NCBI GenBank assembly: GCA_903885525.1
Contig: CAISJA010000295.1
Span: forward strand, 1-35,214
Reading direction: 5' to 3'
Length of the DNA stretch: 35,214 nucleotides
From: an uncultured Opitutaceae bacterium
GTDB taxonomy: Bacteria; Verrucomicrobiota; Verrucomicrobiia; Opitutales; Opitutaceae
The position numbers and the translations under genes were made by a program. Under the pieces are notes generated by a model. The model made no database searches and was not told where the DNA came from. It saw only the letters and a list, made by a program, of their open reading frames with translations. Below, one piece after another: positions 17,381 through 22,859 of the stretch (the stretch's first letter is position 1; each line of letters opens with the position of its first letter).

Positions 17381-17788
17381 GGGGGACGGAAAAGGCAGCC
17401 GAAAAGGCGGAAGGATGGTTAAGGGTTCACGGCGGCAGAGCCAGCCAAAGATTGCATAAGCCATCCACTCGGGTGCGCAAGCGTCGGAATCAGCCGGGCG
17501 GCCCCACGCGCCTGGCCGGCGGCTGCGGGGCGGCAACGCCCCTGCACCGCACGTGCTCCGGCCGGCCGGGCCCGGGCCGCTTTTTCCCACTCCGGCGAGG
17601 CGGCGCGCCGGTCATGCTCTCCTGCCCGCCCGGACCGACCCGTGACATCCAGGCCTGGCCTCAGGCAGGGGCCGGGCCCGGCGACGGCGAGAACGGCAGG
17701 CCGTCGGATTTGCCGGGGGAAACGCGGCGCGAATCCAGTTGAGAATCACATTTGTTCCCGTCAGGCTCCCGCCTGTTCTTTGGATTTT

Positions 17789-18081
17789 GGGCCTATAGCT
17801 CAACGGTTAGAGCAGAGGACTCGGTTTCGGGTCGGCGGCAGGGAAACCTGCCGTCAGTCAGGTGTAAATTCGGTGAACGGCCTGCCCGCCAGGGCGACCC
17901 AACGCCGAGCCAAGCCCGTGCGCAAGCGCGGTAAGGTGTAGAGACCATAATCACCCACCTAATCCGGCAACGGGATGGTGAAGGCATGGTCCAGACCACG
18001 CACGGCAACCCGCCGGCGGCGAAAGCCGAAGTGGTAAGCATAATCCTTTGGTTCTGGGTTCAAATCCCAGTGGGCCCACCA
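17789..18081 (+). tRNA. ileX: tRNA-Ile2 (CAU, lysidine-type) interrupted by a group I intron; exon 1 at 17789-17821, exon 2 at 18039-18081
   Basis: Joined exons give a 76-nt cloverleaf GGGCCTATAGCTCAACGGTTAGAGCAGAGGACT/CATAATCCTTTGGTTCTGGGTTCAAATCCCAGTGGGCCCACCA. Acceptor GGGCCTA/TGGGCCC, anticodon stem GAGGA/TCCTT, loop CT-CAT-AA, encoded CCA. G1-C72 (not fMet); C4-G69 and C5-G68 are TilS determinants. Confidence 0.9.
17822..18038 (+). ncRNA. Self-splicing group I intron (IC3/Azoarcus-like), 217 nt, no ORF
   Basis: Exon ends in U and intron ends in omega-G. P1 GACUCG/CGGGUC with a U-G wobble at the splice site; P2 with a GAAA loop; P element AAAUUCGGUGAA; Q element AACGCCGAGCC; R element GGUGUAGAGACCA; S element AAGGCAUGGUCC; P7 GACCA/UGGUC; P9 hairpin CGGC-GAAA-GCCG. 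Confidence 0.93.
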
Positions 18082-18960
18082 TCCAACGACTCGATCGATC
18101 CGTTTTTGTCGATGTGCCCATCACTTTGCCCAGCGGGAGTGCTGATGCTTCTTTTTCGCGCCGGACGCTCTCATGCTTCCTTTCGCGCAAGTGCTTGAAT
18201 GTGTTGATCTAGCTCTGCGCAAAAAGGAGCATCCACCAGAGCCTTATTCAGCGGCTCTATGCATCCGTCCTTAGCGGTAGATAAAATGTGCGAAGAGAAT
18301 CGTGCAGGGCTTGGATGCCCCCAAGATTCGCGTGACCCGCGAGGGGCGCCAGGTCGTAAGCGACGCAGATTTCGAGGTCCTTTGAGGCCATATAATTCCC
18401 GTGGATTAGAGCTTCAGGACCTCGTCGTAGTTGAACGTCTCCTCGAAGTATTCGCAGTTGGCGAAGAAGTCGAAGAGCTTGAAGGCCTTCTTACTGGGCT
18501 CCTTCACCCCATCCCGGATCGCCTCGTCGAAGAGTTGCTCACGGAAGTCGTGCTTCCGGGTGCCACGCCCCTTGATCTGGATGAAGTCCGTCGGCGAGAA
18601 AATCGGGCGGAAGAGGCCAAGGTTGAGGATGTCCGGGCAGTCGTAGCCGAGTGAAGAATGGCGGCGGAGGAAGTTGGTTCAGCTGCCGCACCGCCGGAGG
18701 AAGACGAGTTCATCCCATTGCTGACATCGGGTGTGGCCATGATTCATCCGCCAGACGGAGGGCAATGTCACGTATTACGTGACGATTGGCTTGGGGGAGC
18801 CGAGGTGGGGCAGGCGGACGGGGGGCGCAGAAATTTGATTTGGGAGCTGAAGGCGGAGGGGCGTTTGGGGCGTGCCTTGGCGTGATTTTCAAATCAGGGG
18901 CACCCTGACTGGGTCTGGCTTGGTCGTTGTGGTTGGGCAACGGCCTGGCCTTGGACCGAG
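18082..18960. mobile_element. Degenerate genomic-island remnant downstream of the tRNA
   Basis: GC drops right after the tRNA 3' end. TGCCCA direct repeats (18115-18132) resemble integrase arm sites. Contains a truncated hsdR fragment and no intact ORF. Confidence 0.5.
18406..18651 (-). pseudogene. hsdR: Internal fragment of a type I restriction enzyme R subunit (HsdR, helicase motifs V-VI)
   Basis: Not in the ORF track. Hand translation: LGYDCPDILNLGLFRPIFSPTDFIQIKGRGTRKHDFREQLFDEAIRDGVKEPSKKAFKLFDFFANCEYFEETFNYDEVLKL*. No start codon; in-frame TGA just upstream. Confidence 0.75.
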
Positions 18961-19088: not shown

Positions 19089-22000
19089 CTAGCCCAAGGG
19101 CTGGACGCCGATCGTGCCGACCAGGAACCGGCGGTAGTCGGGGGACTCGACGTGGGCCAGCTGGGCCTGGGCGGCGGCGAAGCGTTGGTGGAGGTCGAGG
19201 CGATTGGCGATGGGCTGGTGGTCGGGGGCGGCAAGGTACGCTCCGAGCGTCCGCACATGCCGCCGCCACAGCGCCTGGTCGGCCACCTGCTTGGCTTCGA
19301 GGCGGGCAGCGTACCAGTCGCTGGCCAGCAGATACTCGCGGGAGAAGAGCGCGCGGAAGGCGGGAGTGTCCAGGGTGTAGCCGGCCGCGGAACGGCCGTA
19401 GGCCATGATCTCCAGGAGCGCCTGCAACGGGGGGCAGGCCAGGCTGATGGTGCCGTCGGTGAAGTAGCTGAGCGCCACGCGCTGGTGGGTGGCGCAGATG
19501 TTGTCCATGCCATCGGCAAACACCGCGGGATCCTGCTTTTCGGGCCGGAGCATCTCCTCCGTAAAGATCGACGAGGGATGCGTGAAGACGCGGCCGAGGA
19601 AGACGCGGCCGAATTTGGCGGTGATGCGATACCCCAGCCGGCTCGCCAGCACGGGGCGGCCGGCCCACTCGAAGTCCTGGCAACGCTCCAGATATCCGTT
19701 TGCGAGCAGGAAGTCCGGTTCGCGCTCGGCCGGCTTCATGCGGCACCACAGCTCGGGCACGAGGAGGCTGATGTCGTGGTTGACGCGCATTTTCGGGCCG
19801 ACGTAGCCGGCGGCGGAGAGAAACGCCGGGTGCCCGGTCAGGATCTGCGCGACCAGCGCCGCATTGAGGTCGAGCAGCGCCGGCAGGGCGTTGAACGGCC
19901 CCTTGGTCAGCGCCCCTTCCGAACCGGCTCCCGTGGTGGAAGGCGATTTGCCGGTCATGGAACTGATGTACTCCATGAACAGCTCGGGCAGCTCAAGATA
20001 GTGCAGCGGATTGAAGACCGCGAGGGAGCGGATATTGGCCTGCGGCTCCGGCGGGTTGTTGCGGCGGCCGGGAACGACGGCATCGACCGGGGTGAGCACC
20101 GGTGCGTCCGCCGGCAGGCGGCGGAAAAGGCGCGTCCCCATGCGGGCCAGGTGGACGGCCCGGGCATCGGCCAGGTCCGGCCGCACCTGCAGGTAACGGG
20201 GGTTTTTCGAGGGCTGGCCGTTCACCAGCCGCGGATGGGCGGAGGAGACAAAATACTCCGGGCCGGCGGGGTCGGTCGCGGCCGCACGCACGAGCGCCTG
20301 CATCGCGGGCGAAAACGGGGCAAAGCTGATGGCCTCGTCGATCAGCTCCCGGGCATCCGCCTGGTTGAGGGGCTCGAAGTTGGAGATGAAATTCCCGGGC
20401 TGCGCCATTTCCCGCTCGGTCGTCCGATCGTAGCCGCGATGAATGGCGTCGTCCGGGCGCTGGAATAGCTGCTGCTCGCAGTTCTGGGCGAACTTTTCCG
20501 ATCTCCCGTCCCGCCCGGGCAGCGCGTCCCGGAGGGCGGCCGCGGGCACCACGACCGAGGCCGTGATGTCGTCCTCCATCTGGATCTTGGCCGCGGGGTG
20601 AAAATCCTCGCGGAGCCCGAACACGCGCCAGGCCCCGTCGACGGCAAAGCCCACCCGCACGTAACTTGCGGTCAGCTTGCGGTTGCCGCACTTCAACTCG
20701 TGCCCGGGCTGGCCGTTGATGATGTCGACCGAGAAATGTGCGCGCCAGTTTTCGCCCCACGCCGTCGTGTAGTGGCGTTTCACCACGAAGACGATTTCCC
20801 GCAGGTAGCGCGGGATGGCGCGCAGCCAGGCGTTGTACTCGTCCGAGTAGTCGAGATCGACCGGCGTGAGGAGCTTGATGACCGATCCGAGCGAGCGCTC
20901 GGGACTGAGGATGGGGCGGGAGTCGGTCCCGTGTCTGGCCGGGTCGCGGAAGCGGTCCCCGTAGTCGCGCCCGATAAGCTCCACCACGCGGTCCAGGTCA
21001 TTCTCGAAGTCCGCGATGAAGACCGGACCGGGCAGGATGGCATCGGAGATGGCCTTCGAGATTTCGGATTTGCCGCCGCCGGAGACCGTGCAGGGCTTGT
21101 GGCAGAAAAGCCCCTCGGCGACGGTTCCGACGATGTGCCAGGCCGTGTGCCCCGGCGGCTGCACCAGGCTGATCTTGTAGCCGGATGGACGGACATAGGT
21201 GCGGCCCACGCGGAAGGGCAGGCTCTGCGCGAGGCCCTGATGGATCCAGGTCAGGCGCTGGGTGGGCAGGTCGAAATGCACGTCTTCCGGGACGTAGAGG
21301 ATGTCGGGATACCGGCGGTCCAGCGCATATCCCTCGGGCTTCACGTCGAGCAGCGAGGCATAGCGTTCGGCGACATCGGCGAAAGAGTACCCCCGCTGCT
21401 GCACGTGCAGGTTGCCGCAAAACTCCTCGCCGAGATCGTAGGCGGGGTAGGTCAGGGCTCCGCCGGCGTGCTCCTCCTCGGCCAGTCCATAGAGGTTGGC
21501 GGAGTAGCTGATCTGGGTCTTCACCTCCTTCTTGCAGTACCCAAAATAGTTGTCCGCAATGATGGTGACGATCACCCCGGAGGCGTCGCGGGCGCAGACC
21601 TTGAAGGCGGAGCCGCCGTTGTAGAGCTCGGTATCGGTCTGCCAGCACATCCCGTCCCGCCGCTGCCGGGGGGTGGCCTGGTCGAAATGGGGCAGGCCCA
21701 GGGAGCGTTTGGTCAGGGTGGTCAGGTGCGGGGCCAGGATCACGCCCCCGGTGTGGCCCGTCCAGCCGTCGGGCCGCAGCGCCAAATCGTTGTCCGGCCG
21801 GCGGGGGTCGCCCGCATTTTCAAAAATGGACTCCACGAAATCGAGGTTGGCCACCAGGGAGCCCGGGGCAAAAAACCGGATTTCCAGCCGCTTCTCCGTG
21901 ATGAAGCCCGGCACGGCCGGCACGACCAGGGGCTGGAGGAGCAGGGAGACAAAGCACGCGGCCTCGGCCGGCTGCCCGCCGGTGTAGGGCAGCACCAGCA

Positions 22001-22433
22001 GGTCCCGCGGTGGGCGCAGGGCCTCGGTCAGCAGATGGACGAAGGTGCTGGCGGGCACCTCGAGCTTGTCGTCCGGCACGGGCAATCCGCCCGCCGCCAG
22101 GTGGAAGACGCCGCTGGTGGTGCGCCGGTCATTGGCCGGATTGTGCAGCACGCCGTTGCGGAGCCGGTAGCTCCGCAGCAGGGGCGAGGTGTGGGAATCG
22201 CCCTTCTCGGGGAGCGACAGCTTCCGGGCCAGTCCCGGTTCATCCAGCCCCAAGGCGTTGCCCGGGAGCCGGGGCACCGGGCCGCAGGCTGAAAAGGCGC
22301 GGTCAAGGTAGGCCTGGATTCTCTCATCGGTGGGGCAGGACCGGCCGCCCGGCCCGCCCTCCCCGCTCGCCAGCAGGCGCAATCGCTGGGCCACGGCTTG
22401 GGGCAGAGGGGAACCGGAGAGTGTGGGAGGCAT
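19089..22433 (-). CDS. PPi-dependent phosphoenolpyruvate carboxykinase (PEP carboxytransphosphorylase type), about 1114 aa
   Basis: GVLHNPANDRRTTSGVFH, TIIADNYFGYCKKEVKTQISYSANLYGLAEEEHAGGA, CHKPCTVSGGGKSEISK, KIQMEDDITAS and SMTGKSPSTTGAGSEGALTKGPFN motifs, which I recognise from the Propionibacterium/Entamoeba PPi-PEPCK family. Confidence 0.82.
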   Translation of the reverse strand: MPPTLSGSPLPQAVAQRLRLLASGEGGPGGRSCPTDERIQAYLDRAFSACGPVPRLPGNALGLDEPGLARKLSLPEKGDSHTSPLLRSYRLRNGVLHNPANDRRTTSGVFHLAAGGLPVPDDKLEVPASTFVHLLTEALRPPRDLLVLPYTGGQPAEAACFVSLLLQPLVVPAVPGFITEKRLEIRFFAPGSLVANLDFVESIFENAGDPRRPDNDLALRPDGWTGHTGGVILAPHLTTLTKRSLGLPHFDQATPRQRRDGMCWQTDTELYNGGSAFKVCARDASGVIVTIIADNYFGYCKKEVKTQISYSANLYGLAEEEHAGGALTYPAYDLGEEFCGNLHVQQRGYSFADVAERYASLLDVKPEGYALDRRYPDILYVPEDVHFDLPTQRLTWIHQGLAQSLPFRVGRTYVRPSGYKISLVQPPGHTAWHIVGTVAEGLFCHKPCTVSGGGKSEISKAISDAILPGPVFIADFENDLDRVVELIGRDYGDRFRDPARHGTDSRPILSPERSLGSVIKLLTPVDLDYSDEYNAWLRAIPRYLREIVFVVKRHYTTAWGENWRAHFSVDIINGQPGHELKCGNRKLTASYVRVGFAVDGAWRVFGLREDFHPAAKIQMEDDITASVVVPAAALRDALPGRDGRSEKFAQNCEQQLFQRPDDAIHRGYDRTTEREMAQPGNFISNFEPLNQADARELIDEAISFAPFSPAMQALVRAAATDPAGPEYFVSSAHPRLVNGQPSKNPRYLQVRPDLADARAVHLARMGTRLFRRLPADAPVLTPVDAVVPGRRNNPPEPQANIRSLAVFNPLHYLELPELFMEYISSMTGKSPSTTGAGSEGALTKGPFNALPALLDLNAALVAQILTGHPAFLSAAGYVGPKMRVNHDISLLVPELWCRMKPAEREPDFLLANGYLERCQDFEWAGRPVLASRLGYRITAKFGRVFLGRVFTHPSSIFTEEMLRPEKQDPAVFADGMDNICATHQRVALSYFTDGTISLACPPLQALLEIMAYGRSAAGYTLDTPAFRALFSREYLLASDWYAARLEAKQVADQALWRRHVRTLGAYLAAPDHQPIANRLDLHQRFAAAQAQLAHVESPDYRRFLVGTIGVQPLG

Positions 22434-22859
22434 AGGCAGACGGCCCTCGGGCAAATCGCTTTTTGAAGGGCCGTACTAAGACGAGCATGAAACAGATTCT
22501 GCGCCAGCCGCGAGGCCAGTTGCGCAAATATGCGTCATCATGGTCCCTGGCGTGATGGTTCGGAGGCCGGGCCGGATATGAATCGGGGCGACGCGGCAAA
22601 GTTTTCCTGGGGTGAGGGGTTGCCCGTTTGGGGGCGATGCCCCGGATCCGGGCAGCAACCGTGCCCGCGGTGATTCCCGCAGAGGAACCGGGAGTGTTGC
22701 CCCCTTGCGGGGAGGATGGCCGCCGCCCAACCGTTGTCCCCGGCGTCGACGAACCGCCACGGCAGGAAGGGCATTTTTTGCCGGAGGTGCCCGCCGACCG
22801 GAAAATATTTCGCACCCGTCAGGGCAAAAAACATCCAAGTATTTGCATAACATAATTTA

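What the first reader, a model, noticed from the sequence alone, without database searches (positions are those of the whole stretch)
17789..18081. tRNA-Ile2(CAU) split by a group I ribozyme between U33 and the lysidine-target C34
Seen: two tRNA halves separated by 217 nt with all group I hallmarks (exon-terminal U in a P1 U-G wobble, P/Q/R/S elements, P7 GACCA/UGGUC, omega-G at 18038). Splicing yields a complete 76-nt tRNA with CAU and Ile2 determinants. Established: the classic Azoarcus tRNA-Ile(CAU) intron sits after the anticodon (36/37), while the 33/34 site is known from cyanobacterial tRNA-fMet. Inference: this is an Azoarcus-like core at a different site of tRNA-Ile2, probably in a different phylum, with its own IGS (GGGUC pairing to exon GACU). 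AUA decoding would then depend on self-splicing before TilS can modify C34. Standard annotators would probably miss this tRNA.
Basis: partly seen in the sequence, partly recalled or inferred. Interest (0 to 1): 0.9.

Follow-up and report, generated by a model that had tools for sequence, protein, structure and literature searches.

The report
Split tRNA-Ile2 with rRNA-type boxA leader
A 217-base intron of the self-splicing (group I) type splits the gene for the tRNA that likely reads the isoleucine codon AUA, at a site that is common in bacteria; the unusual part is that in this bacterial family the split genes, but almost never the intact ones, begin with the short signal found in front of ribosomal RNA genes, which likely recruits the cell's anti-termination proteins to get the intron transcribed and folded.

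Summary
In detail: exon 1 17789-17821 (ends U33), intron 17822-18038 (ends G), exon 2 18039-18081. The joined exons equal intact genes in 3 relatives, and the group I fold covaries. It is the only Ile2-type gene in this 86%-complete assembly, inferred to be Opitutaceae. The 33/34 site is not rare: 35 of 79 mapped public loci are non-initiator tRNA(CAU) genes from at least seven phylum-level groups. The scan found this intron class before on other DNA, including another Opitutaceae genome.

What looks new is the leader. GTTCTTT, the core of this family's rRNA-operon boxA-like site, lies 3-11 nt before the tRNA at the predicted transcription start. It is present in 31 of 32 genes with 33/34 introns, 12 of 12 with a separate 36/37 intron lineage, and 2 of 98 intact genes. 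Pyrinomonadaceae introns carry their own boxA-like motif in loop L1 (31 of 47). Rhodocyclaceae show none (0 of 12). Likely mechanism: NusB/NusE antitermination and folding help for the intron-bearing pre-tRNA. Neither splicing nor Nus binding was tested.

The parts
17739..17767 (+). Predicted sigma70-type promoter: -35 TTGAGA (17739-17744), 17-nt spacer, -10 CAGGCT (17762-17767)
   Evidence: a promoter-like site 5-8 nt before the motif in 19 of 43 split genes against 14 of 1408 control positions. The stricter consensus scan did not list it. Predicted only.
17775..17784 (+). boxA-like leader motif GTTCTTT(GGA); its G lies at or next to the predicted transcription start
   Evidence: Matches the genus's rRNA leader and spacer motif GTTCTTTGAAA at 9 of 10 positions. 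The two 10-mers occur once each in the assembly: here and in the rRNA-leader-like end of C255. Present in 43 of 44 split and 2 of 98 intact family genes.
17789..17821 (+). tRNA-Ile2(CAU) exon 1, positions 1-33, ending in U33
17818..17833 (+). P1: exon GACU paired with guide GGUC (17830-17833), with the U33-G wobble at the 5' splice site
   Evidence: Invariant in 28 of 28
17822..18038 (+). 217-nt ORF-less group I intron: P2 17834-17855, P3 17861/17955, P4 17869/17909, P5-P5a, P6-P6a, P7 17941-17947/17987-17992, P8, P9.0, P9.1, P9 with GAAA, omega-G 18038
18039..18081 (+). tRNA-Ile2 exon 2, positions 34-76 (C34 is the presumed lysidine target), with encoded CCA
18406..18678 (-). Short remnant resembling a type I restriction R subunit; likely scar of an element integrated at the tRNA 3' end (context, not part of the intron)
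   Evidence: Weak NCBIfam NF046051 match, E=0.0028, far below cut-off. G020 shares the downstream stretch.

Best explanation
A 217-nt group I intron sits between U33 and C34 of this assembly's only tRNA-Ile2-type gene and likely removes itself by guanosine-initiated self-splicing, and the boxA-like GUUCUUU at the predicted start of the precursor likely recruits NusB/NusE so that the intron is transcribed by an rRNA-type antitermination complex. Shown: the anatomy, the junction, the conserved fold, and the tight co-occurrence of motif and intron in this family. Inferred from group I chemistry: exogenous G attacks after U33 (P1 U-G), omega-G 18038 marks the 3' site, ligation restores CU-CAU-AA, and only then can TilS modify C34 for AUA decoding. 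Inferred and untested: NusB/NusE bind the leader and, with NusA/NusG/SuhB, keep Rho off the ~220-nt untranslated insert and/or hold the 5' exon near the polymerase until the 3' exon appears. An intact 76-nt tRNA would not need this, so the motif is kept only while an intron is present. The intron itself looks like an optional mobile passenger that the host has accommodated, not a switch. My odds: about 0.95 for the intron and splicing part, about 0.55-0.6 for the Nus part.
For: Intron. Motif and intron: 31 of 32 (33/34), 12 of 12 (36/37), 2 of 98 intact, 0 of 30 intact genes of other families; further-upstream windows 0 of 440 and 1 of 976; same direction in 13 of 13 genera holding both states. 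The one exception, G206, has the motif on a displaced duplicate 5' tRNA fragment about 150 nt upstream. The two intron types are separate lineages, and the Rhodocyclaceae relatives of the 36/37 lineage lack the motif, so it tracks host family plus intron. The 7-mer is a sharp island in unconserved flanks (note that the rows were chosen by the motif) and matches the core of the four motif sites per rRNA operon in this genus. Independent lineage: Pyrinomonadaceae introns have TCTTTGA in their first 20 nt in 31 of 47 against 4 of 1116 later windows, mostly with a GAAA tail like their rRNA leader GATCTTTGAAAAC. Rho and NusB are encoded. A B. subtilis boxA-like RNA, AUGAUCUUUGAAA, binds NusB (PMC13753749); position-4 C is critical (10.1101/091223) and is kept in all 43; rRNA complexes act as RNA chaperones (PMC8632103).
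Against: Neither splicing nor Nus binding was shown; RNA libraries gave only relatives' contigs and no spliced joint of this gene. The 3' half of boxA is not kept in this family (after GTTCTTT: G 29, T 9, C 5 of 43; next base G 25, A 7). The motif is at the predicted +1 with no hairpin before it, unlike the rRNA leaders. The link is not general: Rhodocyclaceae 0 of 12 split genes although that genome's rRNA leader has boxA, Phycisphaerae order 1 of 6, initiator-tRNA introns 0 of 44 upstream and 2 of 44 inside. Kin are not independent, so the counts overstate the number of events; promoter, leader and intron may travel together on integrative elements. The motif can also be drawn paired to exon 25-32.
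Confidence: 0.58

Rival explanations
1. The intron is real but the leader motif is a hitchhiker: one promoter-leader allele was carried around with the introns by integrative elements and has no role of its own.
For: The tRNA gene is an integration hotspot: duplicated 5' fragments in G005, G206 and Rhodocyclaceae loci; integrase matches in 5 of 84 flanks of split genes against 0 of 95 of intact ones (the two query integrases came from split loci, so this is biased); patchy distribution over genera.
Against: Everything around the 7-mer has diverged, and its distance to the tRNA varies from 3 to 11 nt. Two separate intron lineages share it. Intact second copies in G010, G195 and G256 lack it. 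A similar motif recurs inside the intron in another phylum.
Confidence: 0.14
2. The motif works by base pairing, as a temporary stand-in for the 3' strand of the anticodon stem (GUUCUUUG against exon C25-C32) or against the CCA trailer, steering precursor folding without proteins.
For: An 8-pair duplex with two G-U pairs can be drawn against the exon. Several leaders are complementary to the CCA trailer (G000, G005, G015, G289, G418).
Against: Predicted pairing probability to exon 25-32 has median 0.00 for 33/34 and 0.05 for 36/37 nascent RNAs. No U-to-C change improves the wobbles in 43 genes. In Pyrinomonadaceae the motif is unchanged in 6 genes whose exon has A29, and keeps a GAAA tail with no partner. 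Rhodocyclaceae genes with the same exon bases lack it.
Confidence: 0.1
3. The motif is an initiation or 5'-processing signal (initially transcribed sequence, pause site, nuclease or RNase P leader site) that tunes the amount or timing of the precursor and only resembles boxA.
For: Its position is fixed relative to the predicted promoter, not to the tRNA, and only the first 7 nt are strictly kept.
Against: It does not explain the identity with rRNA-operon motifs that are not at start sites, or the L1-loop copies in Pyrinomonadaceae, which lie behind the 5' exon. None of the 36 ARAGORN calls in G000 has GTTCTTT upstream.
Confidence: 0.14
4. The gene is an elongator tRNA-Met or a dead copy, and the insert does not splice.
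For: ARAGORN labels it Met. No isotype-model score or splicing assay was possible. The assembly is 86% complete, so an intact Ile2 gene could be missing.
Against: Separate Met and fMet genes exist, and the acceptor stem matches tRNA-Ile(GAU). All catalytic-core positions are intact and covary.
Confidence: 0.04

Closest known systems
Bacterial tRNA group I introns at anticodon-loop position 2 (33/34): fMet.2Ug, and new types among the 21 of Williams 2020 (bioRxiv 10.1101/2020.01.27.920355)
   Same: U33 as the -1 base, omega-G, compact ORF-less ribozyme in a CAU tRNA; 79 such loci mapped here, 35 in non-initiator tRNAs.
   Different: Very short P1 hairpin followed directly by P2-GAAA; own long-branch clade; boxA-like leader. 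The text I read names only four classical types; whether Ile2.2Ug is among the 17 new ones is in an image table and supplements that I could not see (earlier scan notes say it is).
Azoarcus pre-tRNA-Ile(CAU) intron (Ile2.5Ug, 36/37; 205 nt per PMC13168695)
   Same: Same tRNA, similar size, P2 GAAA loop, similar P3/P4/P7 sequence, receptor-like loop in P8 (compared with the 205-nt Rhodocyclaceae intron L467).
   Different: Site 33/34 with its own guide; different P5 loop; P9.0-P9.1-P9 3' domain; not grouped with L467 in the tree. The Rhodocyclaceae 36/37 genes have no boxA-like leader (0 of 5).
rrn-operon boxA and the NusB/NusE antitermination complex (also before suhB and CRISPR arrays per PMC13753749 and 10.1101/091223)
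   Same: Same 7-8 nt core as the host genus's rRNA leader and spacer motifs, C4 kept, placed ahead of a long untranslated RNA; Rho and NusB encoded.
   Different: Sits at the predicted +1 of a single tRNA precursor, has no upstream hairpin, 3' half relaxed, and is present only with an intron. I found no paper on boxA with tRNA introns.

Membership tests
Group I intron | U-G wobble at the 5' splice site in P1 | tested here: met
   28 of 28
Group I intron | Terminal omega-G | tested here: met
   G18038; invariant in alignment A1
Group I intron | P3/P7 pseudoknot with G-binding pair and bulge; P4-P6 domain | tested here: met
   P3 invariant (uninformative for covariation), P7 with one compensatory change, P4 and P6 paired 98.5-100%
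Group I intron | Match to Rfam Intron_gpI | tested here: not met
   No hit at gathering or E<=10. Williams 2020 states that the Rfam seeds held no bacterial intron, so this is weak evidence against.
Group I intron | Guanosine-dependent self-splicing | not testable with these tools
   RNA runs gave only relatives' contigs, no spliced joint
Subgroup IC3 | Compact core without P5abc or P7.1, GNRA loops L2 and L9 (features recalled) | tested here: inconclusive
   Architecture fits; no subgroup models available; tree position unresolved
tRNA-Ile2 | CAU anticodon in a body with Ile identity, distinct from Met and fMet | tested here: met
   Acceptor pairs 1-4, 7 and A73 as in the genus's tRNA-Ile(GAU); separate Met (C470) and fMet (C508) genes. 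C4-G69 and C5-G68 present (determinants recalled); position 29-41 is G-C, not the recalled E. coli C-G.
tRNA-Ile2 | TilS encoded | tested here: met
   TIGR02432 over cut-off
tRNA-Ile2 | Lysidine at C34 and charging with Ile; isotype-model score | not testable with these tools
   No tRNAscan-SE, no bench data
boxA | 5' core matching the host's rRNA-operon motif, with C4 | tested here: met
   GTTCTTT in 42 and GTTCATT in 1 of 43; both forms occur in the genus's rRNA operons
boxA | Conserved A-rich 3' half | tested here: not met
   Variable in Opitutaceae leaders, as in two of the four rRNA-operon sites; met in Pyrinomonadaceae L1 copies
boxA | Lies in the transcript, upstream of untranslated RNA | tested here: inconclusive
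   At the predicted +1; start site not mapped
boxA | Binds NusB/NusE and blocks Rho | not testable with these tools
   NusB and Rho genes present; binding untested

The most novel reading that the evidence does not exclude
Bacteria co-opt the rRNA antitermination and chaperone machinery for self-splicing introns: a pre-tRNA that gains a group I intron also gains a boxA (at the transcript's 5' end in Opitutaceae, inside loop L1 in Pyrinomonadaceae), so a 'protein-free' ribozyme depends in vivo on Nus factors, and supply of the AUA-reading tRNA is tied to NusB/S10 availability.
Probability: 0.5. Interest if true: 0.72.

Novelty: new variant of a known kind. Interest (0 to 1): 0.48.

Why it matters
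The split gene alone adds one more example of a common intron class and a reminder that default annotation loses or mislabels tRNA-Ile2. The leader link, if it holds, would add intron-bearing tRNA precursors to the short list of Nus/boxA targets (rRNA, suhB, CRISPR arrays). It would show how hosts absorb the cost of a long untranslated insert in an essential tRNA, and give a small system (about 310 nt, one point mutation) for testing whether the rRNA transcription complex chaperones ribozyme folding in cells.

Tried and rejected
Rfam scans: no group I hit. Other intron-split tRNAs in G000: the ARAGORN -i calls I opened (C332, C434) show no group I core, and three core motifs co-occur only at C295; the other -i calls were not opened one by one. 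RNA evidence: 24 runs with small word shares; 4 laid; only 80-95%-identical relatives' contigs, no spliced joint of this gene; inconclusive. A sequence-only model over 150 phylum genomes found only G000 but scored 20 candidates per genome and missed the known fragment in G160, so it says nothing about absence. A core-motif scan of 401 phylum genomes found no tRNA intron outside the family among 13 genomes hit, so the motif could not be tested on another tRNA of this phylum. Conserved synteny around the gene: not found. A neighbouring homing endonuclease: none among the 36 window ORFs scanned. An intrinsic terminator at 17762-17784: rejected, because the hairpin overlaps the predicted -10 element and the bases before the motif are unconserved. 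An alternative junction shifted by one base fits the letters but breaks the U/omega-G rule. Exon-pairing role for the motif: disfavoured. General boxA-intron rule: rejected. Three long 36/37 calls were artefacts of duplicated 5' fragments and were dropped (8 to 5). A recalled 2025 survey of tRNA introns in Patescibacteria was not found in the library.

Full report
Observation. The window holds a 5' tRNA half at 17789-17821, a 217-nt insert at 17822-18038 and a 3' half at 18039-18081. Default ARAGORN and Rfam miss it; ARAGORN with introns finds it and labels it Met. In four close relatives the same mode mislabels the gene as Glu or Lys, because the intron starts with a false anticodon. The joined exons are identical over positions 1-73 to intact genes in 3 of 94 family genes compared, so the 33/34 junction is fixed by natural empty alleles. 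Across 28 homologues (28 of 32 aligned), 56 named pairs are 96.9% paired with 22 two-sided changes, none of 500 shuffles reaches this, and slid controls fall to 25-45%. P1 with its U-G, P3, the P7 G-binding pair and omega-G are invariant. Splicing itself is inferred.

Identity and host. The assembly (2.7 Mb, 67% GC, 86% complete) has separate Met and fMet genes and no other Ile2-type gene among 36 ARAGORN calls; tilS is present. The acceptor stem matches the genus's tRNA-Ile(GAU) at pairs 1-4 and 7 and at A73. AUA makes up 472 of 23,315 Ile codons and occurs in 300 of 1,207 roughly called ORFs. Named public records with the same exon and intron type are Opitutia, Opitutus, Opitutaceae or Verrucomicrobiota, so I infer Opitutaceae.

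Distribution. A scan for G directly before a CAU 3' half stopped at 120 loci; 79 could be mapped as 33/34-split genes, 35 of them non-initiator, with titles from Patescibacteria, planctomycetes, Acidobacteria, Chloroflexota, Betaproteobacteria, Bdellovibrionales and Verrucomicrobiota. In the family, 32 of 251 sampled genomes hit the intron (27 of the 30 loci returned were complete 33/34 genes) and 12 of 251 carry a different intron at 36/37 of the same tRNA. Most relatives are intact (82 of 121), and three genomes hold both forms. The two intron types are separate: the 33/34 set is one clade (100/100) on a long branch of unresolved position, and the 36/37 set has an extra P7.1-like insert and groups with Rhodocyclaceae 36/37 introns (99/99) (84 rows, 20 of 34 initiator-type rows left out). 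Williams 2020 (whole text read; Table 1 and figures are images; supplements not seen) lists 21 types, four of them classical. The string Ile2.2Ug is not in the searchable library, but earlier scan notes place it in that catalogue. The site should be treated as known.

The leader. Split genes begin with GTTCTTT 3-11 nt before the tRNA: 31 of 32 at 33/34, 12 of 12 at 36/37, against 2 of 98 intact family genes and 0 of 30 intact genes of other families in the order. Further-upstream windows give 0 of 440 and 1 of 976. All 13 genera with both states show the same direction. The exception, G206, has a duplicated 5' tRNA fragment upstream that carries the motif. Five intact genes have GTTCTTTG within one mismatch, which may be relics of intron loss. 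The flanks are unconserved except for traces of a promoter: a promoter-like site ends 5-8 nt before the motif in 19 of 43 genes against 14 of 1408 control positions, which puts the motif's G at or next to +1. The rRNA operons of the genus carry the same core at up to four sites, two with the tail GAAA (4 leaders and 3 spacers read). In G000 the 10-mers GTTCTTTGAA and GTTCTTTGGA occur once each, in the rRNA-leader-like end of C255 and here. Rho (two copies) and NusB are encoded.

Other lineages. In Pyrinomonadaceae, 31 of 47 split genes have TCTTTGA in the first 20 nt of the intron (loop L1), against 4 of 1116 later windows, 0 of 47 leaders and 0 of 20 intact leaders; most keep a GAAA tail like the family's rRNA leader GATCTTTGAAAAC, and six keep the motif although the exon has A29 (the Ile2 or Met identity of these tRNAs was not tested). 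Against a general rule: Rhodocyclaceae 0 of 7 (33/34) and 0 of 5 (36/37), Phycisphaerae order 1 of 6 with 0 of 22 intact, initiator-tRNA introns 0 of 44 upstream and 2 of 44 inside. The patterns for these lineages were chosen after seeing a few examples, so they are exploratory.

Mechanism. Shown: anatomy, junction, fold and co-occurrence. Inferred from group I chemistry: two transesterifications restore the anticodon loop before TilS can act. Inferred and untested: the leader is a boxA. In E. coli, boxA loads NusB/S10 and suffices for the complex that blocks Rho, and a B. subtilis boxA-like RNA AUGAUCUUUGAAA binds NusB (PMC13753749, passages). C4 is critical (10.1101/091223, passages). The complex holds the 5' end near the exit channel as an RNA chaperone (PMC8632103, passages). 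A precursor four times longer than a tRNA, untranslated and needing to fold, is a plausible client. Weak points: the 3' half of boxA is relaxed, the motif is at the very 5' end, and other Rho-bearing lineages manage without it. Pairing to exon 25-32 can be drawn but has median predicted probability 0.00-0.05 and shows no covariation. Hitchhiking on integrative elements is real as a transport route but does not explain a conserved 7-mer in randomised flanks. Kin are not independent; the evidence amounts to perhaps three lineages (two introns in Opitutaceae, one in Pyrinomonadaceae), not 75 events.

Literature and novelty. A search for boxA, group I intron, tRNA and antitermination together gave 2 papers: one read in passages does not link them, the other was seen only as a listing. 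Searches listed boxA papers; the two I opened have no mention of tRNA or intron. PMC13168695 (passages) was used for the Azoarcus intron's size. The library lacks most subscription papers and a recalled Patescibacteria tRNA-intron survey, and no earlier scan note held all the words of the boxA query. Verdict: the intron is a new member of a common, probably catalogued class; the intron-linked boxA-like leader is a variant that I did not find described. Interest 0.48; about 0.72 if Nus dependence is shown.

Noticed in passing
L011:1501-1817 (G018) and L240-L250: A second intron lineage sits at 36/37 of the same tRNA-Ile2 in the same family, with an extra helix between P7 and P3; seven genera hold both intron types.
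   Followed up: yes
L345 (G206), L040 (G005), L462, L463, L467: Duplicated 5' tRNA fragments upstream of split genes or on another contig suggest integrative elements that supply a new promoter and 5' tRNA half, a possible transport route for ORF-less introns.
   Followed up: partly
L237 (G160): A decayed 3' piece of the intron with a mutated exon 2 follows an ORF end that looks integrase-like by eye.
   Followed up: no
L238 (G253), L402, L438, L439: Related group I-like introns in other tRNAs (Asn-like, a Lys- or Asn-like and two Thr-like genes); the automatic site calls for these are unreliable and none has the leader motif.
   Followed up: no
L342 (G686), core near 1501: A group I-like core with no tRNA found around it in another family of the phylum.
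   Followed up: no
window 17780-17785 and 18081-18086: The leader bases TTGGAT are complementary to the last A of CCA plus the trailer, extending the acceptor stem; seen in several relatives but not in all.
   Followed up: partly
window 19089-22454 (-): A 1,121-aa ORF with no Pfam or NCBIfam match; by eye it resembles PPi-type PEP carboxykinase-like proteins (recalled, not tested).
   Followed up: no
G000 C488 and C470: Two Rho-like genes, one in a 787-aa open frame.
   Followed up: no
L333 (G256): About 22 kb of defence-island-type genes (PLD, TPR-GreAB-C-PIN, HNH, NERD) lie between a split and an intact copy of the tRNA-Ile2 gene.
   Followed up: partly
L358-L405: Many Pyrinomonadaceae 33/34 introns come in about 250-370 nt and about 600-650 nt forms; the long form probably holds an ORF.
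   Followed up: no
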